Shown in pieces: positions 3,469-64,000 of a stretch of DNA of 64,000 nucleotides (positions are counted from its first letter, which is position 1; every line of letters begins with the position of its first letter). The DNA lies in the NCBI RefSeq assembly GCF_009914755.1, contig NC_060942.1, one strand, 5' to 3'. Under the pieces are notes generated by a model, which saw only the letters and a list, made by a program, of their open reading frames with translations, was not told the origin of the DNA and did not search any database. The DNA is from the human T2T-CHM13v2.0 reference genome, Homo sapiens. A program made the translations under genes and the position numbers.

Positions 3469-3479
3469 GAAACACTCTT
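3469..3479 (+). other. L1 target-site duplication, left copy (GAAACACTCTT)
   Basis: Identical 11-mer at 4095-4105. The TSD may extend to 13-14 bp (gaaacactcttct vs gaaacactctttct). Confidence 0.85.
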
Positions 3480-4094: not shown

Positions 4095-4105
4095 GAAACA
4101 CTCTT
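4095..4105 (+). other. L1 target-site duplication, right copy (GAAACACTCTT)
   Basis: L1 sequence ends at ...acaatccca (4094). Satellite resumes with gaaacactctttctgtag, repeating 3469-3479. Confidence 0.85.
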
Positions 4106-7100: not shown

Positions 7101-7166
7101 GATGTTTGCTTTTAAGTCACAGAGTTCAACATTCCCTTCCATAGAGCCGGTTTGAAACCCTTTTTT

Positions 7167-9263: not shown

Positions 9264-9869
9264 ACTAGACAGAAGCATTCGCAGAAACTTGTTTGTAATG
9301 TGTGTCCTCAACTCACAGAGTTGAACATTTCGTTCGAGAGATCAGTTTGGAAACACTCTTTTTGTAGAATCTGAAAGTGGATATTTGGATAGCTTTGTGG
9401 ATTTCGATGGAAACGGGAGTATCTTCATACAAAACCTAAGCAGAAATATTCTAAGAAACTGCTTTGTGATATCTGCATTCACGTCACAGAGTTGAACATT
9501 CCCTTTGATAGAGCAGGTTTGAAACACTCTTTCTGTAGTGTCTGGATGTGGACACTTTGAGCGCTTTGACGCTTACGGTGAAAAAGGAAATATCTTCCCA
9601 TAAAAACTAGAGAGAAGCATTCGCTGAAACTTCTTTGTGATGTGTGTCCTCAACTAACAGAGTTGAACCTTTCTATTTACAGAACAGTTTTCAAAGACTC
9701 TTTTTGGAGAATCTGCAAGTGGATATTGGGATAGCTTTAAGGATTTCATTGGAAACCGGAATATCTTCAGGTAAAATCTAGCCAGAGGCATTCTCAGAAA
9801 CTTCTTCGTGATGTGTGTCCTCAACTAACAGAGTACAACCTGTCTTTTGATACAGCAGTTTGGAAACAA

Positions 9870-12800
9870 TCTTTTTGTAGAATCTGCAAGAGGATATTTG
9901 GATAGCTCTAGCGATTTCGATGGATACGGGAATACCTTCATATGAAATCTAGACAGAGGCACTCTCAGAAACTGCTTTGTGATATCTGCATTCAAGTCAC
10001 AGAGTTGAACATTCCCTTTCTTAGAGCAGGTTTGAAACTCTCTTTTTGTAGTATCTGGAAGTGGACACTTGGAGCGCTTTGACGCCTTTGGTGAAAAAGG
10101 AAATGTCTTCCCATAAAAACTAGACAGAAGCATTCTAAGAAACTTCTTTGGGATATATGTACTCAACTAACAGAGTTGAACCTTTCTATTTAGAGATCAG
10201 TTTTAAAAAGCTCTTTTTGTGGAATCCGCAAGTGGATATTAGAATAGCTCTGAGGATTTCGTTGGAGACGGGATTACGTATAAAAAGTAGACAGCAGCAT
10301 TCTCAAAAGCTTCTTTGTGATGTTTGCTTTTAAATCGCAGAGTTCAATATTCCCTTCCGTAGAGAAGGTTTGAAACACTCTTTCTGTAGTATCTGGAAGT
10401 GGACATTTCGAGCGATTTCAGGCCTGTGTTGAAAAAGGAAATATCTTCCAATAAAAACTAGACGGAAGCATTCTCAAAAATTTCTTTGTGATGTGCGTCC
10501 TCAACTAACAGAGTTCATCCTTTCTTATGATACAGCAGTTTATAAACACTCTTTTTGTAGAATCTGCAAGTGGATATTTGCATAGCTCTAACCATTTCAT
10601 AGGAAACGGGAATACCTTCATATAAAATCTAGACAGAGGCACCCTCAGAAACTGCTTTGTGATATCTGCATTCAAGTCACAGAGTTGAACATTCCCTTTC
10701 TTAGAGCAGGTTTGAGACAATCTATTTGTAGTATCTGGTAGTGGACATTTGGAGCGCTTTGACGCCTTTGGTGAAAAAGGAAATATCTTCCATAAAAACT
10801 AGACAGAAGCATTCCAAGAATCTTCCTTGCGATATATGTACTCAACTACCAGAGTTGAACCTTTCTATTGATAGATCAGTTTTGAAAAGCTCTTTTTGTG
10901 GAATCTGCAATTGGATATAAGGATAGTTCTGAGGATTTCGTTGGAGACGGGATTGCATATAAAAAGTAGACAGCAGCATTCCCAGAAGCTTCTTTGTGAT
11001 GTTTGCTTTTAAGTCACAGAGTTGAATATTCCCTTCCATAGAGCAGGTTTGAAACCCTCTTTGTCTACTATCTGGAAGTGGACATTTCGAGCGCTTTCAG
11101 GCCTATGGTGAACAAGGAAATATCGTCCCATAAAAACTAGACAGAAGCATTCGCAGAAACTTGTTTGTGATGTGTGTCCTCATCTCACAGAGGTGACCAT
11201 TTCGTTTGACAGAGCAGTTTGGAAACACGCTTTTTGCAGAATACGCAAGTGGATATTTGGATAGCTGTAACGATTTCGTTGGATACGGGAATAACTTCAT
11301 ATAAATTCTAGACAGAGGCACTCTCAGAAACTGCTTTTTGATATCTGCATTCAAGTCACGGAGTTGAACATTCTCTTTCTTAGAGCAGGTTTGAAACACT
11401 CTTTTTGTAGTATCTGGAAGTGGACATTTGGAGGGCTTTGACGCCTTTGGTGAAAAAGGAAATGTCTTCCCATAAAAACTAGACAGAAGCATTCTAAGAA
11501 ACTTCTTTGGGATATATGTACTCAACTAACAGAGTTGAACCTTTCTCTTTATAGATCAGTTTTGAAAAGCTCTTTTTGTGGAATCTGCAAGTGGATATTA
11601 AAATAGCTCTGAGGATTTCGTTGGAGACGGGATGACATATAAAAAGTAGACAGCAGCATTCTCAGAAGCGTCTTTGTGATGTTTGCTTTTAAGTCACAGA
11701 GTTGAATTTTCCCTTCCATAGAGCAGGTTTGAAACAATCTTTCTGTAGTATCTGGAAGTGGACATTTCGAGCGCTTTCAGGCCTATGTTGAAAAATTAAA
11801 TATCTTCTCATAAAAACTATACAGAAGCATTCTCAGAAACGTCTTTGTGATGTGTGGCCTCAACTAACAGAGTTCAACCTTTCTTATGATACAGCAGTTT
11901 GGAAACACTCTTTTTGTAGAATATGCAATTGGATATTTGGATAGCTCTAAGTATTTCGTTGGAGACGGGAATATCTTCATATAAAATCTAGACAGAAGCA
12001 CTCTCAGAAACTACTTTGTGATATCTGCATTCAAGTCACAGAGTTGAAAATTCCCTTTCTTAGACCAGGTTTTAAACCGTCTTCTCGTGGAATCTGCAGG
12101 AGGATATTTCGATAGCCTTGAGGGTTTAGTTGGAAACGGGATTACATATACAAAGTAGACAGCAGCATTCTCAGAAGCTTCTTTGTGATGTTTGCTTGTA
12201 AGTCACAGAGTTGAACATTCTCTTTCATAGAGCAGGTTTGAAACACTCTTCCTGTAGTATCTGGAAGTGGACATTTCGAGCGCTTTCAGGCCTATGGTGA
12301 ACAAGGAAATATCTTCCCATAAAAACTAGATAGAAGCATTCGCAGAAACTTCTTTGTGATGTGTGTCCTCAACTCACAGAGTCGAACATTTCGTTTGACA
12401 GAGCAGTTTGGAAACACGCTTTTTGTAGAATCTGCAAGTGGATATTTGGATAGCTTTGCGGATTTTGCTTGAAACGGGAGTATCTTCCTATTAAACCTAG
12501 ACAGAAACATTCTCAGAAACTGCTTTGTGATGTCTGCATTCACGTCACGGAGTTGAACATTCCCTTTCATAGAGCAGGTTTGAAACTCCCTTTCTGTAGT
12601 ATCTGGATGTGGACACTTGGAGGGCTTTGACGCTTACGGTGAAAAAGGAAATATGTTCCCATGAAAACTAGACAGAAGCATTCTCACAAACTGGTTTGTG
12701 ATGTATGTCCTCAACTAACAGACTTGAACCTTTCTATTTACAGAGCAGTTTTGAAAGACACTTTTTGGAGACTCTGCAAGTGGATATTTGGAGAGCTTTA

Positions 12801-15800
12801 AGGATTTCACTGGAAACCGGAATATCTTGAGGAAAAATCTAGACAGAGGCATTCTCAGAAACTTCTTTGTGATGTGTGTCCTCAACTAACAGAGTACAAC
12901 TTGTCTTCTGATACAGCAGTTTCGAAACACTCTTTTTGTAGAAACTCCAAGAGGATATTTCGATAGCTCTAACGGTTTCGTTGGAAACCGGAATACCTTC
13001 ATATAAAATTTAGCAGAGGCACTCTCAGAAACTGCTTTGTGATATCTGCATTCAAGTCACAGAGTTGAACATTCCCTTTCTTAGAGCAGGTTTGAAACAC
13101 CCTTTTTGTAGTATCTGGAAGTGGACATTTGGAGCGCTTTGACGCCTCTGGTGAAAAAGGAAAGGTCTTCCCATAAAAACTAGACAGAAGCATTCTAAGG
13201 AACTTCTTTGGGATATATGTACTCAACTAACACAGTTGAACCTTTCTATTTATAGATCAGTTTTGAAAAGCTCTTTTTGTGGAATCCGCATGTGGATATT
13301 AGGATAGCACTGAGGATTTCGTTGGAGACGGGATTACGTATAAAAAGTAGACAGCAGCATTCTCAGAAGCTTCTTTGTGATGTTTGCTTTTAAATCGCAG
13401 AGTTCAATATTCCCTTCCATAGAGCAGGTTTGAGACACTCTTTCTGTAGTATCTGGAAGTGGACATTTCGAGCGATTTCAGGCCTATGTTGAAAAAGGAA
13501 ATATCTTCCAATAAAAATTAGACGGAAGCATTCTCAAAAATTTCTTTGTGATGTGTGTCCTCAACTAACAGGGTTCAACCTTTCTTTTGATACAGCAGTT
13601 TGTAAACACTCTTTTTGTAGAATCTGCATGTGGATATTTGGATAGCTCTAACCATTTCATAGGAAACGAGAATAACTTCATATAAAATCTAGACAGAGGC
13701 ACTCTCAGAAACTACTTTGTGATATCTGCGTTCAAGTCACAGAGTTGAACATTCCCTTTCTTAGAGCAGGTTTGAGACACTCTTTTTGTAGTATCTGGAA
13801 GTGGACATTTGGAGCGCTTTGACGCCTTTGGTGAAAAAGGAAATATCTTCCATAAAAACTAGACAGAAGCATTCTAAGAAACTTCTTGGCGATATATGTA
13901 CTCACCTAACAGAGTTGAACCTTTCTATTGATAGATCAGTTTCGAAAAGCTCTTTTTGTGGAATCTGCAATTGGATATAAGGATAGTTCTGAGGATTTCG
14001 TTGGAGACGGGATTGCATATAAAAAGTAGACAGCAGCATTCTCAGAAGCTTCTTTGTGATGTTTGCTTTTAAGTCACAGAGTTGAATATTCCATTCCATA
14101 GAGCAGGTTTGAAACCCTCTTTCTCTACTATCTGGAAGTGGACATTTCGAGCGCTTTCAGGCCTATGGTGAACAAGGAAATATCGTCCCATAAAAACTAG
14201 ACAGAAGCATTAGCAGAAAATTGTTTGTGATGTGTGCCCTCAACTCACAGAGTGGAACACTTCGTTTCACAGAGCAGTTTGGAAACACGCTTTTTGTAGA
14301 ATTTGCATGTGGATATTTGGATAGCTTTGTGGATTTCGTTGGAAACGGAAGTATCCTCATATAAAAATTAGACAGAAACATTCTCAGAAACCGCTTTGTG
14401 ATGTCTGCATTCACGTCACAGAGTTGAACATTCCCTTTCATAGAGCAGGTTTGAAACACTCTTTCTGTAGTATCTGGATGTGGACACTTGGAGCACATTG
14501 ACGCTTACGGTAAAAAAGGAAATATCTTCCCATAAAAACTAGACAGAAGCATTCTCACAAACTGGTTTGTGATGTATGTCCTCAACTAACAGCGTTGAAC
14601 CTTTCTATTTACAGAGCAGTTTTGAAAGACTCTTTTTGGAGAATCTGTAAGCGGATATTTGGAGAGCTTCAAGGATTTCATTTTAAACCGTAATATCTTC
14701 AGGTAAAATCTAGCCAGAGGCATTCTCAGAAACTTATTTATGATGTGTGTCCTCAACTAACAGAGTACAACCTATCTTTTGATACAGCAGTTTGGAAACA
14801 CTCTTTTTGTAGAATCTGCAAGTGGATATTTCGATAGCTGTAACGATTTCGTTGGAAATGGGAATACCTTCATATAAAATCTAGAGAGGCACTCTCCGAA
14901 AGTGCTTTGAGCTATCTGCTTTCAAGTCACAGAGTTGAACATTCCCTTTCTTAGAGAAGGTTTGAAACACTCTTTTTGTAGTATGTGTAAGTGGACACTT
15001 AGACCGCTTCGACCCCTTTGGTGAAAAAGGAAATGTCTTCCCATAAAAACTAGACAGAAGCATTCTAAGAAACTTCTTTGGGATATATGTACTCAACTAA
15101 CAGAGTTGAACCTTTCTATTTCTGGGTCAGTTTTGAGAAGCTCTTTTTCTGTAATCTGCAAGTGGATATTCGGATAGCTCTGAGGATTTCCTTGGAAACG
15201 GGATTTCATATAAAATATAGACAGCAGCATTCTCAGAAGCTTCTTTGTGATGGTTGCTTTTAAGTCACAGAGTTGAATATTCCCTTCCATAGAGCAGGAT
15301 TGAAACACTCTTTCTGTAGTATCCGGAAGTGGACATTTCGGGCGATTTCAGTCCTATGTTGAAAAAGGAAATATCATCCCATAAAAACTAGACAGAAGCA
15401 TTCTCAGAAATTTCTTTGTGATGTGTGTCCTCAACTAACAGAGTTCAAACTGTCTTATGATACAGCAGTTTGGAAACACTCCTTTTGTAGAATATGCAAG
15501 TGGATATTTGGATAGCTCTAACTATTTCGTTGGAAACGGGAATATCTTCATATAAAATCTAGACACAAGCACTCTCAGAAACTACTTTCTGATATCTGCA
15601 TTCAAGTCACAGAGTTGAATATTCCCTTTCTTAGAGCAGGTTTGAAACCGTCTTTTCGTGGAATCTGCAGGAGGATATTTGGATAGCTTTGAGGATTTCG
15701 TTGGAAAAGGGATTAAATATAAAAATAGAAAGCAGCATTCTCAGAAGCTTCTTTGTGATGTTTGCTTTTAAGTCACAGTGTTCAACATTCCCTTTCATAG

Positions 15801-18800
15801 AGCAGTTTTGAAACACTCTTTCTGTAGTATCTGGAAGTGGACATTTCGAGTGCTTTCAGGCCTATGGTGAAAAAGGAAATATCTTCCGATAAAAACTAGA
15901 CAGAAGCATTCGCAGAAACTTGTTTGTGATATGTATCCTCAACTATCAGAGTTGAACATTTCATTTGACAGAGCAGTTTGGAAACACGCTTTTTGTAGAA
16001 TCTGCAAGTGGATATTTGGATAGCTTTGTGGATTTCCTTGGAAACGGGAGTATCTTCATATAAAACCTAGACAGAAACATTCTCAGAAACTGCTATATGA
16101 TGTCTGCATTCACGTCACAGAGTTGATCATTCCCTTTCATAGAGCAGGTTTGAAACACTCTTTCTGTACTATCTGGATGTGGACACTTGGAGCGCTTTGA
16201 CGCTTAAGGTGCAAAAGAAATATCTTCCCATAAAAACTAGACAGAAGCATTCTCACAAACTGGATTGTGATGTTTGTCCTCAACTAACAGAGTTGAAACA
16301 TTTTATTTGCAGAGCAGTTTTGAAAGACTGTTTTTGGAGAATCTTCAAGTGGATATTTGGAGAGCTTTAAGGAATTCATTGGAAACGGGAATATCTTCAT
16401 ATAAAATCTAGACAGAGGCATTCTCAGAAACTTCTTTGTGATGTGTGTCCTCAACTAACGGCGGTACATCCTGTCTTTTGATACAGCAGTTTGGAAACAC
16501 TCTTTTTGTAGAATCTGCCAGTGGATATTTGCATAGCTCTAATGATTTCTTTGGAAACGGGAATACCTTCATATAAAATCTAGACAGAGGCACTCTCAGA
16601 AACTGCTTTGTGATATCTGCATTCAAGTCACACAGTTCAACATTCCCTTTCTTAGAGCAGGTTTGAAACACTCTTTTTGCAGGATCTGGAAGTGGACATT
16701 TGGAGCGCTTTGACGCCTTTGGTGATAAAGGAAATGTCTTCACATAAAAACTAGAAAGAAGCATTCTAAGAAACATCTTTGTGATATATGTACTCAACTA
16801 ACCGAGTTGAACCTTGCTCTTTATAGATCAGCTTTTTAATGCTCTTTTTGTGGAATCTGCAAGTGGATATTTGGATAGCTTTCAGGATTTCGTTGGAAAC
16901 GGGATTACAAACAAAATGTAGACAGCAGCATTCTCAGAAACTTCTTTGTGATGTTTGCTTTTAAGTCACAGAGTTGAACATTCCCTTCCATAGAGCAGTT
17001 TAGAAACACTCTTTCTATAGTATCTGGAAGTGGACATTTCGAGCGATTTCAGGCCTATGTTGAAAAACGAAATATCTTCCCATAAAAACTAGACAGTAGC
17101 ATACTCAGAAGCTTCTTTGTGATGCTTGCTTTTAAGTCACAGAGTTGAACATTCCCTTTCGTAGAGCAGGTTTCAGACACTCTTTCTGTAGTATCTGGAA
17201 GTGGACATTTCGAGTGTTTTCAGGCCTATGGTGAACAAGGAAATATCTTCCCATAAAAACCAGACACAAGCATTTGCAGAAACTTGTTTGTGATGTGTGT
17301 CCTCAACTCACAGAATAGAACATTTCGTTTGACAGAGCAGCTTGGAAACACGCTTTTTGTAGAATCTGCAAGTGGATATTTGGATAGCTTTGTGGATTTC
17401 GTTGGAAACGGGAGAATCTCCATATAAAACCTAGACAGAAACATTCTCAGAAACTGCTTTGTGATGTCTGCATTCACGTTACAGAGTTGAATATTCCCCT
17501 TCATAGAGCAGGTTTGATACACTCTTTCTGTAGTATCTGGATGTGGACACTTGGAGCGCTTTGACGCTTACAGTGAAAAAGGAAATATCTTCCCATAAAA
17601 ACTAGACAGAAGCATTCTCACAAACTGGTTTGTGATGTATGTCCTCATCTAACAGAGTTGAACTTTTCTATTTACAGAGCAGTTTTGAAAGACTCTTTTT
17701 GGAGAATCTGCAAGTGGATATTTCGAGAGCTTTAAGGATTTCACTGGAAACCCGAATATCTTCAGGTAAAATCTAGACAGAGGCATTCTCAGAAACCTCT
17801 TTGTGATGTGTGTCCTCAACTAACAAAGTACTACCTGGCTTTTGATACAGCAGTTTGGAAACACTCTTTTTGTACAATCTGCAAGTGGATATTTGGATAG
17901 CTCTAAAGATTTCGTAGGAAACGGGAATACCTTCATATAAAATCTAGACAGAGGCACTCTCAGAAACTGCTTTGTGATATCTGCATTCAAGTCACAGTGT
18001 TGAACATTCCCTTTCTGAGAGCAGGTTTGAACCACTCTTTTTGTAGTATCTGGAAGTGGACATTTGGAGCGCTTTGACGCCATTGGTGAAAAAGGAAATG
18101 TCTTCCCATAAAAACTAGACAGAAGCATTCTAAGAAACTTCTTTGGGATATATGTACTCAACTAACAGAGTTGAAACTTTCTATTTAGAGATCAGTTTTG
18201 AAAAGCTCTTTTTGTGGAATCTGCAAGTCGATGTTAGGATACCGCCGAAGATTTCGTTGGAGACGGGATTACATATAAAAATAGACAGCAGCATTCTCAG
18301 AAGCTTCTTTGTGATGTTTGCTTTTAAATCACAGAGTTGAATATTCCCTTCCATAGAGCAGGTTTGAAACACTCTTTCTGTAGTATCTGGAAGTGGACAT
18401 TTCGAGCGATTTCAGGCCTATGTTGAAAAAGGAAATATCTTCCCATAAAAACTAGACAGAAGCATTCTCAGAAACTTCTTTGTGATGTGTGTCCTCAACT
18501 AACAGAGTTCAACCTCTCTTATGATACAGCAGTTTGGAAACACTCTTTTTGTAGAATATGCAACTGGATATTTGGAGAGCTCTAACTATTTTGTTGGTAA
18601 CGGGAATATCTTCATATAAAATCTAGACAGAAGCACTCTCAGAAACTACTTTGTGATATCTGCATTCAAGTCACAGAGTTGAATATTCCCTTTCTTAGAG
18701 CAGGTTTGAAACCGTCTTTTCGTGGAATCTGCAGGAGGATATTTGGATAGCTTTGAGGATTTCGTTGGAAACGGGATTACATATACAAAGTGGACAGCAG

Positions 18801-21800
18801 CATTCTCAGAAGCTTCTTTGTGATGTTTGCTTTTAAGTCACAGAGTTGAACATTCCCTTTCATAGAGCAGGTTTCAAACACTCTTTCTGTAATATCTGGA
18901 AGTGGCCATTTCGAGCGCTTTCAGGCCTATGGTGAACAAGGAAATATCTTCCCATAAAAACTAAACAGAAGCCTTCGCAGAAACTTGTTTGTGATGTGTG
19001 TCCTCAACTCACAGAGTTGAACATTTCGTTTGACAGAGCAGTTTGGAAACACGCTTTTTGTAGAATCTGCAAGTGGATATTTGGATAGCTTTGTGGATTT
19101 CCTTGGAAACGGGAGTATCTTCATATAAAACCTAGACAGAAACATTCTCAGAAACTGCTTTGTGATGTCTGTATTCACGTCACAGAGTTGAATATTTCCT
19201 TTCATAGAGCAGGTTTGAAACACTCTTTCTGTAGTATCTGGATGTGGACACTTGGAGCGCTTTGAGGCTTACGGTGCAAAAGGAAATATCTTCCAATGAA
19301 AACTAGACAGAAGCATTCTCAAAAACTAGTTTGTGATGTATTTCCTCAACTAACAGAGTTGAACCTTTCTATTTACAGAGTAGTTTTGAAAGACTCTTTT
19401 TGGAGAATCTACAAGTGGATATTTGAGAGCTTTAAGGATTTCATTGTAAACCGGAATATCTTCAGGTAAACTCTAGACAGAGGCATTCTCAGAAACTTCT
19501 TTGTGATGTGTGTCCTCAACTAACAGAGTTCAGCCTTTGTTATGATACAGCAGTTTGGAAACACTCTTTTTGTACTATCAGGAAGTGGACTTTTGGAGCG
19601 CTTTGACACCTTTGGTGATAAAGAGATGTCTTCCCATAAAAACCAGACGGAAGCATTCTAAGAGAATTCTTTGGGATATAAGTACTCAACTAACAGAGTT
19701 GAACCTTTCTATTTATAGATCAGTCTTGAAAAGCTCTTTTCGTGGAATCTGCAAGTGAATCTTAGGATAGCTCTGAGGATTTCGTTGGAAATCGGATTAC
19801 ATATAAAAAGTAGACAGCAGCATTCTCAGAAACTTCTTTGTGATGTTTGCTTTTAAGTCACAGAGTTCAATATTCCCTTCCATAGAGCCGGTTTGAAACA
19901 CTTTTTTTGTAGTATCTGGAAGTGGACATTTCGAGCGATTTCAGGCCTATGTTGAAAAAGGAAACATCTTCCCATAAAAAAAGACAGAAGCATTCTCAGA
20001 AACTTCTTTGTGATGTGTGTCCTCAACTAACAGAGTTCAACCTCTCGTATAATACAGCAGTTTGAAAAAACACTTTTTGTAGAATATGCAAGTGGATATT
20101 TGAACAGCTCTAACTATTTCGTTCGAAATGGGAATATCTTCATATAAAATCTAGACAGAAGCACTCTCAGAAACTACATTGTGATATCTGTATTCAAGTC
20201 ACAGAGTTGAATATTCCCTTTCTTAGAGCAGGTTTGAAACCGTCTTTTCGTGGAAGCTGCAGGAGGATATTTGGATAGCTTTGAGGATTTCGTTGGAAAC
20301 GGGATTACATATACAAAGTAGACAGCAACATTCTCAGAAGCTTCTTTGTGATGTTTGCTTCTAAGTCACAGAGTTGAACATTCCCTTTCATACAGCAGGT
20401 TTGAAACACTCTTTCTGTAGTATCTGGAAGTGGACATTTCGAGCGCTTTCAGGCCCATGGTGAAAAAGGAAATATCTCCCCATAAAAACTAGACAGAAGC
20501 ATTCGCAGAAACTTGTTTGTGATGTGTGTCCTCAACCAACAGAGTTGAACATTTCCTGTGACAGAGCAGTTTGGAAACACGCTTTTTGTAGAATCTGCAA
20601 TTGGATATTTGGATAGCTTTGTGGATGTCGTTGGAAACGGGAGTATCTTCATATAAAACCTAGACGGAAACATTCTCCGAAACTCCTTTGTAATGTCTGC
20701 ATTCACGTCACAGAGTTGAACATTCCCTTTCATAGAGCAGGTTTGAAACACTCTTTCTGAAGTATCTGGATGTCGACACTTGGAGCGCTTTGACGCTTAC
20801 ACTGAAAAAGGAAATAACTTCCCATGAAAACTAGACAGAAGCATTCTCACAAACTGGTTTGTGATGTATGTCCTCAACTAACAGAGTTGAACCTTTCTAT
20901 TTACAGAGCAATTTTCAAAGACTCTTTTTGGAGAATCTGCAAGTGGATATCTGGAGATCTTTTAGGATTTCATTGGAAACCGGAATATCTTCAGGTAAAA
21001 TCTAGACAGAGGCATTCTCAGAAACTTCTTCATGATGTGCGTCCTCAACTAACAGAGTACAACCTGTCTTTTGATACATCAGTTTGGAAACACTCTTTTT
21101 GTAGAATCTGGAAGTGGATATTTCGATAGCTCTAACGATTTCGTTGGAAACGGGAATAGCTTCATATAAAATCTAGGCAGAGGCACTCTCAGAAACTACT
21201 TTGTGAGATCTGCATTCAAGTCACAGAGTTCAACATTCCCTTTCGTAGATCTGGTTTGATAGACTCTTTTTATTGTATCTGGAAGTGGACATTTGGAGCG
21301 CTTTGACGACTTTGGTGAAAAAGGAAATATCTTCCCATAAAAACTAGACAGAAGCATTCTCAGAAACTTGTTTGTGCTGTGTGTACTCAACTGACAGAGC
21401 TGAACTTTTCTTTCTACACAGCAGTTTTGAAAAACTCTTTTTGTAGTATCTGCAAGTGGATAATTGGATGGCTTTAAGGATTTCGTTGGAAATGGGTCTA
21501 CATTCATGTAAAATCTACACAGAAGCATTCTCAGAAACTTCTTTGGGATATATGTACTCAACTAACAGAGTTGAACCTTTCTATTTCTGGGTCAGTTTTG
21601 AGAAGCTCTTTTTCTGTAATCTGCAAGTGGATATTCGGATAGCTCTGAGGATTTCCTTGGAAATGGGATTTCATATAAAATGTAGACAGCAGCATTCTCA
21701 GAAGCTTCTTTGTGATGTTTGCTTTTAAGTCACAGAGTTGAATATTCCCTTCCATAGAGCAGGATTGAAACACTCTTTCTGTAGTATCCGGAAGTGGACA

Positions 21801-48100: not shown

Positions 48101-48816
48101 ACATTCCCTTACATACAGCAGGTTTGAAACACTCTTTCTGTAGTATCTGGAAGTGGACATTTCGAGCGCTTTCAGGCCCATGGTGAAAAAGGAAATATCT
48201 CCCCATAAAAACTAGACAGAAGCATTCGCAGAAACTTGTTTGTGATGTGTGTCCTCAACCAACAGAGTTGAACATTTCCTGTGACAGAGCAGTTTGGAAA
48301 CACGCTTTTTGTAGAATCTGCAAGTGGATATTTGGATAGCTTTGTGGATTTCCTTGGGAACGGGAGTATCTTCATATAAAACCTAGACGGAAACATTCTC
48401 CGAAACTCCTTTGTAATGTCTGCATTCACGTCACAGAGTTGAACATTCCCTTTCATAGAGCAGGTTTGAAACACTCTTTCTGAAGTATCTGGATGTGGAC
48501 ACTTGGAGCGCTTTGACGCTTACGGTGAAAAAAGGAATAACTTCCCATGAAAACTAGACAGAAGCATTCTCACAAACTGGTTTGTGATGTATGTCCTCAA
48601 CTAACAGAGTTGAACCTTTCTATTTACAGAGCAGTTTTCAAAGACTCTTTTTGGAGAATCTGCAAGTGGATATCTGGAGATCTTTAAGGATTTCACTGGA
48701 AACCGGAATATCTTCAGGTAAAATCTAGACAGAGGCATTCTCGGAAACTTCTTCGTGATGTGCGTCCTCAACTAACAGAGTACAACCTGTCTTTTGATAC
48801 ATCAGTTTGGAAACAC
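39124..48816 (+). repeat. Super-HOR copy 3, 57-monomer deletion variant (9,693 bp; 4,934 bp or 29 monomers missing)
   Basis: The offset to copy 1 changes from 29,254 (12999/42253) to 24,320 (18927/43247). Equivalents of ORFs 13902-18181 are absent. Confidence 0.93.
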
Positions 48817-54800: not shown

Positions 54801-57800
54801 TTTCAGGCCTATGGTGAAAAAGGAAATATCTTCCGATAAAAACTAGACAGAAGCATTCGCAGAAACTTGTTTGTGATATGTATCCTCAACTATCAGAGTT
54901 GAACATTTCATTTGACAGAGCAGTTTGGAAACACGCTTTTTGTAGAATCTGCAAGTGGATATTTGGATAGCTTTGTGGATTTCCTTGGAAACGGGAGTAT
55001 CTTCATATAAAACCTAGACAGAAACATTCTCAGAAACTGCTATATGATGTCTGCATTCACGTCACAGAGTTGATCATTCCCTTTCATAGAGCAGGTTTGA
55101 AACACTCTTTCTGTACTATCTGGATGTGGACACTTGGAGCGCTTTGACGCTTAAGGTGCAAAAGAAATATCTTCCCATAAAAACTAGACAGAAGCATTCT
55201 CACAAACTGGATTGTGATGTTTGTCCTCAACTAACAGAGTTGAAACATTTTATTTGCAGAGCAGTTTTGAAAGACTGTTTTTGGAGAATCTTCAAGTGGA
55301 TATTTGGAGAGCTTTAAGGAATTCATTGGAAACGGGAATATCTTCATATAAAATCTAGACAGAGGCATTCTCAGAAACTTCTTTGTGATGTGTGTCCTCA
55401 ACTAACGGCGGTACATCCTGTCTTTTGATACAGCAGTTTGGAAACACTCTTTTTGTAGAATCTGCCAGTGGATATTTGCATAGCTCTAATGATTTCTTTG
55501 GAAACGGGAATACCTTCATATAAAATCTAGACAGAGGCACTCTCAGAAACTGCTTTGTGATATCTGCATTCAAGTCACACAGTTCAACATTCCCTTTCTT
55601 AGAGCAGGTTTGAAACACTCTTTTTGCAGGATCTGGAAGTGGACATTTGGAGCGCTTTGACGCCTTTGGTGATAAAGGAAATGTCTTCACATAAAAACTA
55701 GAAAGAAGCATTCTAAGAAACATCTTTGTGATATATGTACTCAACTAACCGAGTTGAACCTTGCTCTTTATAGATCAGCTTTTTAATGCTCTTTTTGTGG
55801 AATCTGCAAGTGGATATTTGGATAGCTTTCAGGATTTCGTTGGAAACGGGATTACAAACAAAATGTAGACAGCAGCATTCTCAGAAACTTCTTTGTGATG
55901 TTTGCTTTTAAGTCACAGAGTTGAACATTCCCTTCCATAGAGCAGTTTAGAAACACTCTTTCTATAGTATCTGGAAGTGGACATTTCGAGCGATTTCAGG
56001 CCTATGTTGAAAAACGAAATATCTTCCCATAAAAACTAGACAGTAGCATACTCAGAAGCTTCTTTGTGATGCTTGCTTTTAAGTCACAGAGTTGAACATT
56101 CCCTTTCGTAGAGCAGGTTTCAGACACTCTTTCTGTAGTATCTGGAAGTGGACATTTCGAGTGTTTTCAGGCCTATGGTGAACAAGGAAATATCTTCCCA
56201 TAAAAACCAGACACAAGCATTTGCAGAAACTTGTTTGTGATGCGTGTCCTCAACTCACAGAATAGAACATTTCGTTTGACAGAGCAGCTTGGAAACACGC
56301 TTTTTGTAGAATCTGCAAGTGGATATTTGGATAGCTTTGTGGATTTCGTTGGAAACGGGAGAATCTCCATATAAAACCTAGACAGAAACATTCTCAGAAA
56401 CTGCTTTGTGATGTCTGCATTCACGTTACAGAGTTGAATATTCCCCTTCATAGAGCAGGTTTGATACACTCTTTCTGTAGTATCTGGATGTGGACACTTG
56501 GAGCGCTTTGACGCTTACAGTGAAAAAGGAAATATCTTCCCATAAAAACTAGACAGAAGCATTCTCACAAACTGGTTTGTGATGTATGTCCTCATCTAAC
56601 AGAGTTGAACTTTTCTATTTACAGAGCAGTTTTGAAAGACTCTTTTTGGAGAATCTGCAAGTGGATATTTCGAGAGCTTTAAGGATTTCACTGGAAACCC
56701 GAATATCTTCAGGTAAAATCTAGACAGAGGCATTCTCAGAAACCTCTTTGTGATGTGTGTCCTCAACTAACAAAGTACTACCTGGCTTTTGATACAGCAG
56801 TTTGGAAACACTCTTTTTGTACAATCTGCAAGTGGATATTTGGATAGCTCTAAAGATTTCGTAGGAAACGGGAATACCTTCATATAAAATCTAGACAGAG
56901 GCACTCTCAGAAACTGCTTTGTGATATCTGCATTCAAGTCACAGTGTTGAACATTCCCTTTCTGAGAGCAGGTTTGAACCACTCTTTTTGTAGTATCTGG
57001 AAGTGGACATTTGGAGCGCTTTGACGCCATTGGTGAAAAAGGAAATGTCTTCCCATAAAAACTAGACAGGAGCATTCTAAGAAACTTCTTTGGGATATAT
57101 GTACTCAACTAACAGAGTTGAAACTTTCTATTTAGAGATCAGTTTTGAAAAGCTCTTTTTGTGGAATCTGCAAGTCGATGTTAGGATACCGCCGAAGATT
57201 TCGTTGGAGACGGGATTACATATAAAAATAGACAGCAGCATTCTCAGAAGCTTCTTTGTGATGTTTGCTTTTAAATCACAGAGTTGAATATTCCCTTCCA
57301 TAGAGCAGGTTTGAAACACTCTTTCTGTAGTATCTGGAAGTGGACATTTCGAGCGATTTCAGGCCTATGTTGAAAAAGGAAATATCTTCCCATAAAAACT
57401 AGACAGAAGCATTCTCAGAAACTTCTTTGTGATGTGTGTCCTCAACTAACAGAGTTCAACCTCTCTTATGATACAGCAGTTTGGAAACACTCTTTTTGTA
57501 GAATATGCAACTGGATATTTGGAGAGCTCTAACTATTTTGTTGGTAACGGGAATATCTTCATATAAAATCTAGACAGAAGCACTCTCAGAAACTACTTTG
57601 TGATATCTGCATTCAAGTCACAGAGTTGAATATTCCCTTTCTTAGAGCAGGTTTGAAACCGTCTTTTCGTGGAATCTGCAGGAGGATATTTGGATAGCTT
57701 TGAGGATTTCGTAGGAAACGGGATTACATATACAAAGTGGACAGCAGCATTCTCAGAAGCTTCTTTGTGATGTTTGCTTTTAAGTCACAGAGTTGAACAT

Positions 57801-60800
57801 TCCCTTTCATAGAGCAGGTTTCAAACACTCTTTCTGTAATATCTGGAAGTGGCCATTTCGAGCGCTTTCAGGCCTATGGTGAACAAGGAAATATCTTCCC
57901 ATAAAAACTAAACAGAAGCCTTCGCAGAAACTTGTTTGTGATGTGTGTCCTCAACTCACAGAGTTGAACATTTCGTTTGACAGAGCAGTTTGGAAACACG
58001 CTTTTTGTAGAATCTGCAAGTGGATATTTGGATAGCTTTGTGGATTTCCTTGGAAACGGGAGTATCTTCATATAAAACCTAGAAAGAAACATTCTCAGAA
58101 ACTGCTTTGTGATGTCTGTATTCACGTCACAGAGTTGAATATTTCCTTTCATAGAGCAGGTTTGAAACACTCTTTCTGTAGTATCTGGATGTGGACACTT
58201 GGAGCGCTTTGAGGCTTACGGTGCAAAAGGAAATATCTTCCAATGAAAACTAGACAGAAGCATTCTCAAAAACTAGTTTGTGATGTATTTCCTCAACTAA
58301 CAGAGTTGAACCTTTCTATTTACAGAGTAGTTTTGAAAGACTCTTTTTGGAGAATCTACAAGTGGATATTTGAGAGCTTTAAGGATTTCATTGTAAACCG
58401 GAATATCTTCAGGTAAACTCTAGACAGAGGCATTCTCAGAAACTTCTTTGTGATGTGTGTCCTCAACTAACAGAGTTCAGCCTTTGTTATGATACAGCAG
58501 TTTGGAAACACTCTTTTTGTACTATCAGGAAGTGGACTTTTGGAGCGCTTTGACACCTTTGGTGATAAAGAGATGTCTTCCCATAAAAACCAGACGGAAG
58601 CATTCTAAGAGAATTCTTTGGGATATAAGTACTCAACTAACAGAGTTGAACCTTTCTATTTATAGATCAGTCTTGAAAAGCTCTTTTCGTGGAATCTGCA
58701 AGTGAATCTTAGGATAGCTCTGAGGATTTCGTTGGAAATCGGATTACATATAAAAAGTAGACAGCAGCATTCTCAGAAACTTCTTTGTGATGTTTGCTTT
58801 TAAGTCACAGAGTTCAATATTCCCTTCCATAGAGCCGGTTTGAAACACTTTTTTTGTAGTATCTGGAAGTGGACATTTCGAGCGATTTCAGGCCTATGTT
58901 GAAAAAGGAAACATCTTCCCATAAAAAAAGACAGAAGCATTCTCAGAAACTTCTTTGTGATGTGTGTCCTCAACTAACAGAGTTCAACCTCTCGTATAAT
59001 ACAGCAGTTTGAAAAAACACTTTTTGTAGAATATGCAAGTGGATATTTGAACAGCTCTAACTATTTCGTTCGAAATGGGAATATCTTCATATAAAATCTA
59101 GACAGAAGCACTCTCAGAAACTACATTGTGATATCTGTATTCAAGTCACAGAGTTGAATATTCCCTTTCTTAGAGCAGGTTTGAAACCGTCTTTTCGTGG
59201 AAGCTGCAGGAGGATATTTGGATAGCTTTGAGGATTTCGTTGGAAACGGGATTACATATACAAAGTAGACAGCAACATTCTCAGAAGCTTCTTTGTGATG
59301 TTTGCTTCTAAGTCACAGAGTTGAACATTCCCTTTCATACAGCAGGTTTGAAACACTCTTTCTGTAGTATCTGGAAGTGGACATTTCGAGCGCTTTCAGG
59401 CCCATGGTGAAAAAGGAAATATCTCCCCATAAAAACTAGACAGAAGCATTCGCAGAAACTTGTTTGTGATGTGTGTCCTCAACCAACAGAGTTGAACATT
59501 TCCTGTGACAGAGCAGTTTGGAAACACGCTTTTTGTAGAATCTGCAATTGGATATTTGGATAGCTTTGTGGATGTCGTTGGAAACGGGAGTATCTTCATA
59601 TAAAACCTAGACGGAAACATTCTCCGAAACTCCTTTGTAATGTCTGCATTCACGTCACAGAGTTGAACATTCCCTTTCATAGAGCAGGTTTGAAACACTC
59701 TTTCTGAAGTATCTGGATGTCGACACTTGGAGCGCTTTGACGCTTACACTGAAAAAGGAAATAACTTCCCATGAAAACTAGACAGAAGCATTCTCACAAA
59801 CTGGTTTGTGATGTATGTCCTCAACTAACAGAGTTGAACCTTTCTATTTACAGAGCAATTTTCAAAGACTCTTTTTGGAGAATCTGCAAGTGGATATCTG
59901 GAGATCTTTTAGGATTTCATTGGAAACCGGAATATCTTCAGGTAAAATCTAGACAGAGGCATTCTCAGAAACTTCTTCATGATGTGCGTCCTCAACTAAC
60001 AGAGTACAACCTGTCTTTTGATACATCAGTTTGGAAACACTCTTTTTGTAGAATCTGGAAGTGGATATTTCGATAGCTCTAACGATTTCGTTGGAAACGG
60101 GAATAGCTTCATATAAAATCTAGGCAGAGGCACTCTCAGAAACTACTTTGTGAGATCTGCATTCAAGTCACAGAGTTCAACATTCCCTTTCGTAGATCTG
60201 GTTTGATAGACTCTTTTTGTTGTATCTGGAAGTGGACATTTGGAGCGCTTTGACGACTTTGGTGAAAAAGGAAATATCTTCCCATAAAAACTAGACAGAA
60301 GCATTCTCAGAAACTTGTTTGTGCTGTGTGTACTCAACTGACAGAGCTGAACTTTTCTTTCTACACAGCAGTTTTGAAAAACTCTTTTTGTAGTATCTGC
60401 AAGTGGATAATTGGATGGCTTTAAGGATTTCGTTGGAAATGGGTCTACATTCATGTAAAATCTACACAGAAGCATTCTCAGAAACTTCTTTGGGATATAT
60501 GTACTCAACTAACAGAGTTGAACCTTTCTATTTCTGGGTCAGTTTTGAGAAGCTCTTTTTCTGTAATCTGCAAGTGGATATTCGGATAGCTCTGAGGATT
60601 TCCTTGGAAATGGGATTTCATATAAAATGTAGACAGCAGCATTCTCAGAAGCTTCTTTGTGATGTTTGCTTTTAAGTCACAGAGTTGAATATTCCCTTCC
60701 ATAGAGCAGGATTGAAACACTCTTTCTGTAGTATCCGGAAGTGGACATTTCGGGTGATTTCAGTCCTATGTTGAAAAAGGAAATATCATCCCATAAAAAC

Positions 60801-63443
60801 TAGACAGAAGCATTCTCAGAAATTTCTTTGTGATGTGTGTCCTCAACTAACAGAGTTCAAACTGTCTTATGATACAGCAGTTTGGAAACACTCCTTTTGT
60901 AGAATATGCAAGTGGATACTTGGATAGCTCTAACTATTTCGTTGGAAACGGGAATATCATCATATAAAATCTAGACACAAGCACTCTCAGAAACTACATT
61001 CTAATATCTGCATTCAAGTCACAGAGTTGAATATTCCCTTTCTTAGAGCAGGTTTGAAACCGTCTTTTCGTGGAATGTGCAGGAGGATATTTGGATAGCT
61101 TTGAGGATTTCGTTGGAAAAGGGATTACATATACAAAGTAGAAAGCAGCATTCTCAGAAGCTTCTTTGTGATGTTTGCTTTTAAGTCACAGAGTTGAACA
61201 TTCCCTTTCATAGAGCAGTTTTGAAACACTCTTTCTGTAGTATCTGGAAGTGGACATTTCGAGTGCTTTCCGAACTATCGTGAAAAAGGAAATATCTTCC
61301 GATAAAAACTAGACAGAAGCATTCGCAGAAACTTGTTTGTGATGTGTGTCCTCAACTCACAGAGTTGAACATTTCGTTTGACAGAGCAGTTTGGAAACAC
61401 GCTTTTTGTAGAATCTGCAAGTGGATATTTGGATAGCTTTGTGGATTTCCTTGGAAACGGGAGTATCTTCATATAAAACCTAGAAAGAAACATTCTCAGA
61501 AACTGCTTTGTGATGTCTGTATTCACGTCACAGAGTTGAATATTTCCTTTCATAGAGCAGGTTTGAAACACTCTTTCTGTAGTATCTGGATGTGGACACT
61601 TGGAGCGCTTTGAGGCTTACGGTGCAAAAGGAAATATCTTCCAATGAAAACTAGACAGAAGCATTCTCAAAAACTAGTTTGTGATGTATTTCCTCAACTA
61701 ACAGAGTTGAACCTTTCTATTTACAGAGTAGTTTTGAAAGACTCTTTTTGGAGAATCTGCAAGTGGATATTTGGAGAGCTTTAAGGATTTCATTGTAAAC
61801 CGGAATATCTTCAGGTAAAATCTAGACAGAGGCATTCTCAGAAACTTCTTTGTGACGTGTGTCCTCAACTAACAGAGTTCAGCCTTTGTTATGATACAGC
61901 AGTTTGGAAACACTCTTTTTGTACTATCAGGAAGTGGACTTCTGGAGCGCTTTGACACCTTTGGTGATAAAGAGATGTCTTCCCATAAAAACCAGACGGA
62001 AGCATTCTAAGAGAATTCTTTGGGATATACGTACTCAACTAACAGAGTTGAACCTTTCTATTTATAGATCAGTCTTGAAAAGCTCTTTTCGTGGAATCTG
62101 CAAGTGAATCTTAGGATAGCTCTGAGGATTGCGTTGGAAACGGGATTACATATAAAAAGTAGACAGCAGCATTCTCAGAAACTTCTTTGTGATGTTTGCT
62201 TTTAAGTCACAGAGTTCAATATTCCCTTCCATAGAGCCGGTTTGAAACACTTTTTTTGTAGTATCTGGAAGTGGACATTTCGAGCGATTTCAGGCCTATG
62301 TTGAAAAAGGAAACATCTTCCCATAAAAACAAGACAGAAGCATTCTCAGAAACTTCTTTGTGATGTGTGTCCTCAACTAACAGAGTTCAACCTCTCTTAT
62401 AATACAGCAGTTTGAAAAAACACTTTTTGTAGAATATGCAAGTGGATATTTGAACAGCTCTAACTATTTCGTTCGAAATGGGAATATCTTCATATAAAAT
62501 CTAGACAGAAGCACTCTCAGAAACTACATTGTGATATCAGTATTCAAATCACAGAGTTGAATATTCCCTTTCTTAGAGCAGGTTTGAAACCGTCTTTTCG
62601 TGGAAGCTGCAGGAGGATATTTGGATAGCTTTGAGGATTTCGTTGGAAACGGGATTACATATACAAAGTAGACAGCAACATTCTCAGAAGCTTCTTTGTG
62701 ATGTTTGCTTCTAAGTCACAGAGTTGAACATTCCCTTTCATACAGCAGGTTTGAAACACTCTTTCTGTAGTATCTGGAAGTGGACATTTCGAGCGCTTTC
62801 AGGCCCATGGTGAAAAAGGAAATATCTCCCCATAAAAACTAGACAGAAGCATTCGCAGAAACTTGTTTGTGATGTGTGTCCTCAACCAACAGAGTTGAAC
62901 ATTTCCTGTGACAGAGCAGTTTGGAAACACGCTTTTTGTAGAATCTGCAAGTGGATATTTGGATAGCTTTGTGGATTTCCTTGGGAACGGGAGTATCTTC
63001 ATATAAAACCTAGACGGAAACATTCTCCGAAACTCCTTTGTAATGTCTGCATTCACGTCACAGAGTTGAACATTCCCTTTCATAGAGCAGGTTTGAAACA
63101 CTCTTTCTGAAGTATCTGGATGTGGACACTTGGAGCGCTTTGACGCTTACGGTGAAAAAAGGAATAACTTCCCATGAAAACTAGACAGAAGCATTCTCAC
63201 AAACTGGTTTGTGATGTATGTCCTCAACTAACAGAGTTGAACCTTTCTATTTACAGAGCAGTTTTCAAAGACTCTTTTTGGAGAATCTGCAAGTGGATAT
63301 CTGGAGATCTTTAAGGATTTCACTGGAAACCGGAATATCTTCAGGTAAAATCTAGACAGAGGCATTCTCGGAAACTTCTTCGTGATGTGCGTCCTCAACT
63401 AACAGAGTACAACCTGTCTTTTGATACATCAGTTTGGAAACAC
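48817..63443 (+). repeat. 86-monomer super-HOR, copy 4 (14,627 bp)
   Basis: The full ORF series is present again (49452 onward); 48802 to 63429 is 14,627. Confidence 0.93.
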
Positions 63444-64000
63444 TCTTTTTGTAGAATCTGCAAGAGGATATTTGGATAGCTCTAGCGATTTCGATGGATA
63501 CGGGAATACCTTCATATGAAATCTAGACAGAGGCACTCTCAGAAACTGCTTTGTGATATCTGCATTCAAGTCACAGAGTTGAACATTCCCTTTCTTAGAG
63601 CAGGTTTGAAACTCTCTTTTTGTAGTATCTGGAAGTGGACACTTGGAGCGCTTTGACGCCTTTGGTGAAAAAGGAAATGTCTTCCCATAAAAACTAGACA
63701 GAAGCATTCTAAGAAACTTCTTTGGGATATATGTACTCAACTAACAGAGTTGAACCTTTCTATTTAGAGATCAGTTTTAAAAAGCTCTTTTTGTGGAATC
63801 CGCAAGTGGATATTTGAATAGCTCTGAGGATTTCGTTGGAGACGGGATTACGTATAAAAAGTAGACAGCAGCATTCTCAAAAGCTTCTTTGTGATCTTTG
63901 CTTTTAAATCGCAGAGTTCAATATTCCCTTCCGTAGAGAAGGTTTGAAACACTCTTTCTGTAGTATCTGGAAGTGGACATTTCGAGCGATTTCAGGCCTA
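63444..64000 (+). repeat. Super-HOR copy 5, partial (runs off the window)
   Basis: Matches the start of the unit (gcgatttcgatggatacggg, catatgaaatc, gaaactctct). Confidence 0.9.

What the first reader, a model, noticed from the sequence alone, without database searches (positions are those of the whole stretch)
9870..64000. Giant 14,627-bp (86-monomer) higher-order repeat made by re-amplifying a block of already diverged HORs
Seen: near-identical copies at a period of 14,627, while sub-units inside one copy differ by several percent. Manual parse by type-1 monomer start: 10131(4), 10810(4), 11490(10), 13191(4), 13870(7), 15061(10), 16762(8), 18126(9), 19654(11), 21526(9), 23056(10), totalling 86. 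Established: typical active human HOR units are much shorter (a few to ~35 monomers). Inference: a degraded 10-mer layer was re-amplified as a third-tier repeat (monomer, then 10-mer, then 86-mer), i.e. an early-stage new array.
Basis: partly seen in the sequence, partly recalled or inferred. Interest (0 to 1): 0.8.

Follow-up and report, generated by a model that had tools for sequence, protein, structure and literature searches.

The report
Tandemly amplified 86-monomer alpha-satellite block
A 14.6-kb block of old, already diverged centromeric satellite repeats on the long-arm edge of the human chromosome 18 centromere has recently been copied head-to-tail about six and a half times, a clear but mechanistically ordinary example of how new long satellite repeat units arise.

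Summary
The window is all 171-bp alpha satellite. From window 9870 a 14,627-bp unit of exactly 86 monomers repeats in tandem.

The third copy is only 9,693 bp, because of a 29-monomer deletion. The array also continues 35 kb past the window to 99,007: 89,138 bp, about 6.5 unit-equivalents, seven copies, six junctions.

Copies differ by 0.04-0.22%. Same-position monomers inside one unit are only about 92% alike. So a diverged 10-mer HOR layer was re-amplified as a block.

The edges, both internal deletions and the mosaic variant patterns all keep monomer register. This points to stepwise unequal homologous exchange.

The kind is known (superHOR, cascading HOR, amplified piece of an old array). 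I found no printed record of this unit, which is longer than the 52-mer called the longest human HOR. Centromere function and "early-stage new array" are untested. Read support and other haplotypes could not be checked.

The parts
9870..24496 (+). Copy 1 of the 14,627-bp, 86-monomer unit (full length).
   Evidence: The left edge of near-identity is at 9870. There are 86 monomers per period. Copy 1 differs from copy 2 at 14 of 14,627 positions (phase 10131).
24497..39123 (+). Copy 2 (full length). It is a mosaic. It shares derived alleles with copy 1 at some sites and with copies 3-7 at others. It also carries a 4-site patch at unit 20601-20635 that matches paralogous monomers.
39124..48816 (+). 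Copy 3, 9,693 bp. It lacks 4,934 bp (29 monomers), corresponding to copy-1 coordinates of about 13.5k-18.4k.
   Evidence: (gap at alignment columns 3305-8238).
42689..42763 (+). Exchange interval of the copy-3 deletion (unit 13435-13509 joined to 18369-18443). It lies at the same position in monomers 20 and 49, which are 96.5% alike and are each other's best or near-best partner.
   Evidence: 2 of 3 private copy-3 variants just to the left match monomer 48, which indicates a conversion patch.
48817..63443 (+). Copy 4 (full length).
63444..64000 (+). Start of copy 5. Outside the window it continues to 76878 (13,435 bp, lacking 1,192 bp = 7 monomers). Copy 6 (76879-91505, full) and copy 7 (91506-99007, truncated at unit position 17371) follow.
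8896..9869 (+). Left flank. It is an in-register paralogue of the unit's last ~970 bp at about 92% identity, and is the presumed partner of the founding unequal exchange.
   Evidence: about 75 mismatches over 8896-9869 at shift 14,627, then near-perfect identity from 9870.
24471..24522 (+). A 52-base word spanning the unit-to-unit junction (24496|24497).
   Evidence: exactly 6 exact matches in the 3.1-Gb genome. All lie on chr18, spaced 14,627 / 9,693 / 14,627 / 13,435 / 14,627 bp apart. The reversed control gave 0 matches.
18972..24586 (+). Intermediate-age internal duplication within the unit: monomers 53-65 (18972-21183) against monomers 73-85 (22373-24586), 20 monomers (3,401-3,402 bp) apart.
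   Evidence: 98-99% over 1-kb chunks. (93.6-100% per monomer; 12 of 13 pairs at least 97.6%).

Best explanation
This is a young tandem array of a 14,627-bp block cut from an older, moderately diverged alpha-satellite array. That older array is a chr18-type dimeric 10-mer HOR family, probably a sister or divergent form of S2C18H2/D18Z2.

Proposed history:
- An unequal homologous exchange between two in-register 10-mer copies 86 monomers apart (about 92% alike) founded a duplication.
- Further unequal exchanges between the now near-identical 14.6-kb copies raised the number to seven. They also made mosaic copies.
- Exchange between paralogous monomers inside a copy removed 29 monomers from copy 3.
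- A similar in-register exchange removed 7 monomers from copy 5.
- A further exchange truncated the last copy.
- Patchy gene conversion from paralogous monomers added clustered variants.

What is shown: the structure, the register-preserving joins, the shared and mosaic variants, and the uniqueness of the array in this genome.

What is inferred: the order of events, the recombination mechanism, an age within the human lineage, and the absence of any function beyond being pericentromeric satellite.
For: 1. Period and copies. Shift 14,627 gives 0.996-0.9995 identity. There are seven copies spanning 9870-99007. A junction-spanning 52-mer occurs 6 times in the genome, only here.

2. Old substrate, young amplification. 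Same-class monomers inside a unit average 91.8% identity and different classes 74.6%. Copies differ by 0.04-0.22% with no small indels.

3. Register is kept everywhere.
- The unit is 86 whole monomers.
- The array edge at 9870 and its repeat at 24497 both fall at position 82 of monomer 85.
- The left flank is a 92% in-register paralogue of the unit end.
- The 4,934-bp deletion joins position 78-152 of monomer 20 to the same position of monomer 49 (96.5% alike).
- The 1,192-bp deletion joins position 104-121 of monomers 33 and 40.
- Past the right edge, about 93% in-register similarity continues for about 200 bp.

4. Stepwise growth, not one burst. 16 of 41 variable sites are shared by two or more copies. 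8 of them split {1,2} from {3-7}, and 2 join {6,7}. Neighbouring copies are closest: copies 5 and 6 differ at 6 of 13,435 sites.

5. Recombination and conversion.
- With paralogues as outgroup, copy 1 keeps the ancestral base at 10322, 13487, 18766 and 19137, while copies 2-7 share the derived one.
- Copies 1 and 2 share derived bases at 14093, 22580, 22812 and 24407. These two patterns are incompatible on a single tree.
- Copy 2 has a 4-site patch within 35 bp that matches paralogues.
- 2 of 3 private variants beside the copy-3 junction match the partner monomer.
- Transitions to transversions are 22:19.

6. The same region shows other recent block duplications: 17.8 kb duplicated at a distance of 22,287 bp at 99.6%, and 4,749-bp repeats at 99.7%.
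Against: - No read-level, optical-map or second-haplotype support could be examined. The copy number and even the tandem structure rest on one assembly.
- High identity could partly reflect continuing homogenisation of older copies rather than recent origin. Conversion patches show that such processes act here.
- The copy-5 deletion joins monomers only 77.8% alike through an 18-bp identical stretch. That fits short-homology repair or replication template switching as well as classical unequal crossing-over.
- The non-integer copy number (6.51) needs an extra, unobserved truncating event.
- The family name (SF2, S2C18H2) was not tested against reference monomers.
Confidence: 0.85

Rival explanations
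1. Assembly artefact. Some or all of the near-identical 14.6-kb copies are false duplications or mis-joins in the reference assembly.
For: Copies differ at as few as 6 of 13,435 sites, which is the hardest case for assemblers.
Against: 41 variable sites distinguish the copies, and 16 of them show structured sharing. Two different monomer-register deletions mark copies 3 and 5. The six junctions are exact and regularly spaced. From recall, not from a call: this assembly was read-validated and the period is shorter than typical HiFi reads.
Confidence: 0.05
2. An old tandem array kept near-identical by continuing gene conversion or homogenisation. On this reading the 0.1% divergence says nothing about age.
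For: Conversion-like patches are present: copy 2 at 20601-20635, copies 2 and 5 at 17315/17317, and copy 3 beside its deletion. The transversion share is high, at 22 transitions to 19 transversions.
Against: The patches seen import differences from paralogous monomers rather than erase them. There are no small indels among six copies over 14.6 kb. The left flank, an equally good conversion partner, stays at 92% right up to a sharp edge at 9869/9870.
Confidence: 0.07
3. Single-burst amplification (rolling-circle or re-replication) rather than stepwise unequal exchange.
For: All copies are in one orientation and phase, and divergence is very low.
Against: 16 of 41 variable sites are shared by subsets of copies. 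Neighbouring copies are closest, and polarised patterns are mutually incompatible on one tree. A burst predicts a star genealogy made of singletons.
Confidence: 0.03

Closest known systems
superHOR. [quoted passage not shown]
   Same: The repeat unit is itself a fixed string of HOR copies and HOR structural variants, and it recurs in tandem. Here 11 sub-units recur about 6.5 times.
   Different: Those annotations concern active, homogeneous arrays and HOR haplotypes that differ by about 1-3%. Here the sub-units differ by about 8%, the array lies in the distal pericentromeric flank, and n = 11 is beyond the 2-9 range scanned there.
Cascading HORs and 'longest HOR' reports from the GRMhor group. 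These are the human chr21 52mer (PMC12385485, passages read: two copies, 0.2% divergence, called the longest human HOR unit to date) and the orangutan Y 58mer, with a preliminary 84mer on orangutan chr5 (PMC12428378, abstract and passages read).
   Same: Long units in which monomer types recur, with very low copy-to-copy divergence (0.04-0.22% here).
   Different: This unit has 86 monomers, more than any unit named in those passages, and about 6.5 copies against two for the 52mer. The listing of that group's papers shows human chr3, chr15 and chr21 and orangutan chr13 and Y, but no chr18 paper.
Chr18 pericentromeric sister HORs S2C18H2-A, -B, -D, -E, i.e. D18Z2 (Miga and Alexandrov review PMC9549924, passages read). 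S2C18H2-A is written as a 1-10 unit in preprint 10.1101/2025.10.24.684490 (passage read). D18Z2 has a breach of dimeric order (PMC4496801, passage read).
   Same: It is on chr18 and built from two alternating monomer types with breaches. The unit is a 10-mer. An adjacent 11-mer array is built from the same monomer set in another order. Monomers are about 87% identical to the 12-mer array sampled at 18.5 Mb, as expected for different HORs of one suprachromosomal family.
   Different: No reference monomers or annotation track could be consulted, so the name is an inference. Intra-array divergence of about 8% lies between 'sister/homogeneous' and 'divergent' HOR as that review defines them.
Re-amplification of a piece of an old, damaged array (Shepelev et al. 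[quoted passage not shown]
   Same: This is exactly the process inferred here.
   Different: That passage states a general principle. It does not describe this locus or a unit of this length.
Tandem segmental duplication or macrosatellite-like array formed by non-allelic homologous recombination (general knowledge, recalled).
   Same: The unit is kilobase-scale, identity exceeds 99%, there are few copies, and internal deletions arose by homologous exchange.
   Different: The substrate is itself satellite, so every breakpoint has in-register homology. The product has the formal architecture of an HOR.

Membership tests
Alpha satellite | Head-to-tail monomers of about 171 bp. | tested here: met
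   TRF gives period 171 and 375.6 copies over 4-63982. The monomer HMM gave 1,204 plus-strand hits across the 264 kb examined, and modal monomer lengths are 171, 167 and 170 bp.
Alpha satellite | CENP-B boxes in one of two alternating monomer types. | tested here: met
   18 of 86 unit monomers carry the minimal box, and all 18 are in one of the two coarse monomer groups. The motif was typed from recall.
SF2 / S2C18H2 (D18Z2) HOR family of chr18 | Dimeric alternation of two monomer types with a breach of the alternation, in a 10-monomer unit, on chr18. | tested here: met
   Two coarse types alternate, with two adjacent same-type pairs per 10-mer. The canonical sub-unit is 10 monomers. The window is on C18.
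SF2 / S2C18H2 (D18Z2) HOR family of chr18 | Monomers match the reference D1/D2 classes and the S2C18H2 monomer set within a few percent. | not testable with these tools
   No reference monomer library or HOR annotation track was available. The paper with the tables (PMC9233505) is not held.
Classical (Willard-type) HOR | Unit copies are far more alike than the monomers within a unit. | tested here: met
   Copies are 99.78-99.96% identical. The mean identity of different-class monomers is 74.6%.
Classical (Willard-type) HOR | Each monomer type occurs once per unit. | tested here: not met
   The 86 monomers fall into 12 classes at a 12% threshold, 18 at 10% and 55 at 5%. One class has 18 members.
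superHOR / cascading HOR | [quoted passage not shown] | tested here: met
   11 sub-units of 4-11 monomers recur in the same order in four full copies, two deleted copies and one truncated copy.
Active (kinetochore-bearing) centromeric array | CENP-A enrichment and a hypomethylated dip, within a megabase-scale homogeneous array. | not testable with these tools
   No chromatin data were available. The array is 89 kb. The 99.8%-homogeneous 2,035-bp 12-mer sampled at 18.5 Mb is a different HOR.

The most novel reading that the evidence does not exclude
This would be the longest tandemly repeated alpha-satellite unit yet recorded in a human genome: 86 monomers and about 6.5 copies, against the published 52-mer with two copies. 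It would be a human-lineage, copy-number-polymorphic nascent HOR caught within its first few rounds of unequal exchange. Its founding junction, recombinant copies and first deletions are all still readable, so HOR birth could be studied directly across haplotypes.
Probability: 0.35. Interest if true: 0.5.

Novelty: new member of a known kind. Interest (0 to 1): 0.35.

Why it matters
New HORs are thought to arise when a stretch of an older, diverged array is amplified as a block. Usually only the homogenised end product is seen.

Here the founding join, the 92%-identical partner flank, the recombinant copies, conversion patches and the first monomer-register deletions are all still legible in an array of only seven copies.

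The junction word is unique in the genome. It therefore gives a simple marker for counting copies across human haplotypes and for asking whether other apes have the array.

The unit also exceeds the length of anything called the 'longest human HOR' in the papers I could read. This shows that such records depend on definition and on looking outside active arrays.

The finding does not change how centromeres are thought to work.

Tried and rejected
- Whole-window self-BLAST returned only the self hit, because contained HSPs are culled. I replaced it with 1-kb and 342-bp chunk searches.
- MAFFT misplaced the truncated copy 7. Its 4.7% 'divergence' there is an artefact. Copy 7 was compared without gaps instead.
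- My automatic breakpoint picker gave a wrong interval for copy 3. I read the interval 13435-13509 from the printed mismatch lists of the same call.
- DNA searches of the genome with 1 kb and with the whole unit were uninformative on copy number. In one search only 6 of 9,548 candidates were scored and the window itself was not returned. One search was not scored. The exact junction-word search answered the question.
Only three sites were obtained, so the limits of the active array and of the p-side relatives were not mapped.
The analysis was rerun without labels.
- Literature:
  - The search for '86mer', '86-mer HOR', '14627' and '14.6 kb' listed 25 of 3,613 papers. None of the 25 had the first two terms, and the rest were not seen.
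  - 'superHOR', the chr18 HOR names and the cascading-HOR/GRMhor terms gave no description of this unit.
  - PMC9233505 and its tables are not held, and bioRxiv supplements are closed. A catalogue entry for chr18:21.03-21.12 Mb in those tables or in browser tracks cannot be excluded.
- I considered and rejected chance. No other shift in the same blocks exceeded about 0.75 ungapped identity.
Full report
**What is in the window.**
The whole window is alpha satellite. TRF reports one 171-bp array over 4-63982 with 375.6 copies, and composition is flat. Ungapped self-comparison over all shifts from 100 to 40,000 peaks at 38,947, 24,320 and 14,627.

Locally, shift 14,627 gives 0.9956 identity over 9001-28000 and 0.9995 over 43001-49000. 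Shift 9,693 gives 0.9951 over 33001-43000. So the period is 14,627 bp, but one copy is 4,934 bp short.

Chunk-wise BLAST and a multiple alignment give these copies in the window:
- copy 1: 9870-24496
- copy 2: 24497-39123
- copy 3: 39124-48816 (9,693 bp)
- copy 4: 48817-63443
- copy 5: starts at 63444

**Beyond the window.**
The window is chr18:21,018,001-21,082,000 of the genome held. I fetched 100 kb on each side.

The array continues as follows:
- copy 5: to 76878 (13,435 bp, lacking 1,192 bp)
- copy 6: 76879-91505 (full)
- copy 7: 91506-99007, truncated at unit position 17371

In total the array is 89,138 bp. Adding back the two deletions gives 6.51 unit-equivalents.

A 52-base word spanning the unit-to-unit junction occurs exactly six times in the 3.1-Gb genome. 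All six are here, spaced 14,627 / 9,693 / 14,627 / 13,435 / 14,627 bp apart. The reversed control gave 0 matches. The array is therefore unique in this genome.

Alpha satellite ends at window 107,451. Its last 2.3 kb are inverted.

**Anatomy of the unit.**
An HMM built from the region splits the unit into exactly 86 monomers between 10131 and 24757.

The others turn out to be monomer-register variants of it:
- three 4-mers (positions 1,2,9,10 twice, and 1,5,6,10 once)
- a 7-mer lacking positions 2-4
- an 8-mer lacking positions 3-4
- two 9-mers lacking position 9
- an 11-mer with an extra position-3-like monomer
- three full 10-mers; in one of them the second monomer types to the twin position 5

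Two coarse monomer types alternate, with two breaches per 10-mer. 18 of 86 monomers carry a minimal CENP-B box, all in one type.

Same-class monomers within the unit average 91.8% identity (425 pairs, range 84.8-100). Different classes average 74.6%.

Inside the unit there are also intermediate-age duplications:
- monomers 53-65 against 73-85: 93.6-100%, with 12 of 13 pairs at least 97.6%
- monomers 30-35 against 68-73: 96.4-98.8%
- monomers 1-6 against 19-24: 94.7-98.2%

So there are at least four tiers, not three.

**How alike the copies are.**
Copies 1-6 differ pairwise at 6-24 positions (0.04-0.22%). Apart from the two large deletions there is no indel.

Across all seven copies 41 sites vary. 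25 are singletons and 16 are shared by two or more copies. 8 sites split copies {1,2} from {3-7}, 2 join {6,7}, 2 join {3,4}, and others join {4,5} and {4,5,6}. Neighbours tend to be closest: copies 5 and 6 differ at 6 of 13,435 sites.

I polarised the sites using paralogous monomers at least 90% identical. Copy 1 keeps the ancestral base at 10322, 13487, 18766 and 19137, where copies 2-7 share the derived one. Copies 1 and 2 share derived bases at 14093, 22580, 22812 and 24407. These two sets cannot fit a single tree, so copy 2 is a mosaic.

Copy 2 also has four changes within 35 bp (20601-20635). Three of them take the base that most paralogues carry, and the fourth the base of one of six, which is a conversion patch. 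Transitions to transversions are 22:19. That transversion share is higher than the roughly 2:1 I recall for point mutation, and it fits a contribution from conversion.

**Edges and deletions.**
Left of 9870, the flank 8896-9869 aligns in register with the end of the unit at about 92% (about 75 mismatches). From 9870 on, copy 1 and copy 2 show only two mismatches up to 10600. The edge falls at position 82 of the same monomer type at both 9870 and 24497.

Right of 99007, about 93% in-register similarity continues for about 200 bp before register is lost.

The copy-3 deletion (29 monomers) has its exchange interval at unit 13435-13509. This is positions 78-152 of monomer 20, joined to the same positions of monomer 49. 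The two are 96.5% alike, and monomer 20 is monomer 49's best match in the unit. 2 of 3 private copy-3 variants just to the left carry the bases of the partner's upstream monomer 48.

The copy-5 deletion (7 monomers) joins monomers 33 and 40 at positions 104-121, through an 18-bp identical stretch. These monomers are only 77.8% alike.

**Mechanism.**
Every join keeps monomer register and lies in homology. Variants are nested and mosaic, and neighbouring copies are closest.

The best reading is therefore a founding unequal homologous exchange between two 10-mer copies 86 monomers apart. Stepwise unequal exchange among the new copies followed, with conversion patches and secondary deletions. A further exchange with the flank truncated the last copy.

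A single-burst amplification predicts a star genealogy, which is not seen.

For age I used a recalled rate of about 0.5e-9 per site per year. With that rate, 0.04-0.22% corresponds to roughly 0.4-2 million years, or less if satellite DNA mutates faster. This is an inference, and conversion could distort it.

**Context.**
A sample of the array at 18.5 Mb is a 2,035-bp 12-mer at 99.8% identity. Its monomers are on average only 86.8% identical to their best match in the unit.

A sample on the p-arm side (15.945 Mb) carries the same 10-mer in the same order, with similar 4-mer variants. Identity is 93.5% to the best unit monomer, and 87-95% to the canonical ten. So the family flanks the central array on both sides, and its structural variants are old. 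This fits the layered-expansion picture (preprint 10.1101/2021.07.12.452052, passages read).

Upstream of the window, from about -82k to -21k, lies an 1,872-bp 11-mer at about 98% identity. It is built from the same monomer set in another order. It contains a 17.8-kb block duplicated at a distance of 22,287 bp at 99.6%. At -96.8k to -90.2k there are 4,749-bp repeats at 99.7%. Recent large-block duplication is thus a habit of this flank.

**What is known.**
- The review PMC9549924 (passages read) names the sister HORs S2C18H2-A, -B, -D, -E in the chr18 pericentromere.
- A preprint writes S2C18H2-A as a 1-10 unit (10.1101/2025.10.24.684490, passage read).
- Both chr18 families are SF2 dimeric (10.1101/2021.03.10.434819, passages read).
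- PMC4496801 (passages read) notes a breach of dimeric order in D18Z2. It also states that an amplified piece of a damaged old array can look homogeneous again.
- SuperHORs are defined in PMC8336445 and annotated in HG002 (PMC13477032), passages read in both.
- The GRMhor group calls a chr21 52mer with two copies the longest human HOR unit (PMC12385485, passages read). It reports 58-59mers, and a preliminary 84mer, in orangutan (PMC12428378, abstract and passages read).

None of the searches turned up this 86-monomer unit. However, the T2T tables (PMC9233505 not held; bioRxiv supplements closed) and the browser tracks could not be seen.

**Verdict.**
The re-amplification reading is supported. 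The kind is known, but this member appears to be unrecorded in what I could search, and it is unusually long.

Centromere function, read support, polymorphism and the family name remain untested.

Noticed in passing
window 3482-4094: A 613-bp non-satellite insertion interrupts the alpha satellite of the left flank. It begins with a T-run followed by sequence that, from recall, looks like the reverse complement of an L1 3' end with its poly-A tail. That would make it a 5'-truncated L1 on the minus strand. No repeat library was available to confirm this. The 14.6-kb array itself has no such insertion.
   Followed up: partly
upstream of the window, about -82,000 to -21,000 (loci L012-L018): There is a fairly homogeneous (about 98%) 1,872-bp 11-monomer HOR array. 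It is built from the same monomer set as the 10-mer but in another order, lacking positions 1-2. It is probably a sister HOR.
   Followed up: partly
upstream of the window, -57,399..-39,600 against -35,112..-17,313 (loci L015-L019): A 17.8-kb block of the 11-mer array is duplicated at a distance of 22,287 bp with 99.6% identity. This is another recent large-block duplication in the same flank.
   Followed up: partly
upstream of the window, -96,799..-90,200 (locus L011): Repeats with a 4,749-bp period (about 28 monomers) at 99.1-99.7% identity.
   Followed up: no
downstream of the window, 105,154-107,451 (locus L005): The last 2.3 kb of alpha satellite are inverted (14 minus-strand monomers). 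The satellite ends at 107,451, about 6.5 kb before the annotated end of ROCK1 at 113,976. HOR-type dimeric satellite thus reaches almost to the edge of the satellite domain. No long monomeric layer was seen on this side.
   Followed up: no
locus L021 (chr18:15,945,001-15,953,000): The p-arm side of the centromere carries the same 10-mer family with the same order and similar 4-mer variants, and a 3,402-bp (20-monomer) periodicity. This mirrors the 20-monomer internal duplication of the q-side unit.
   Followed up: partly
window 7000-9000: The left flank has short-range repeats at about a 675-bp (4-monomer) period, with 96-100% identity between 1-kb chunks. The first 3.5 kb of the window show a 338-bp dimer period.
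   Followed up: no
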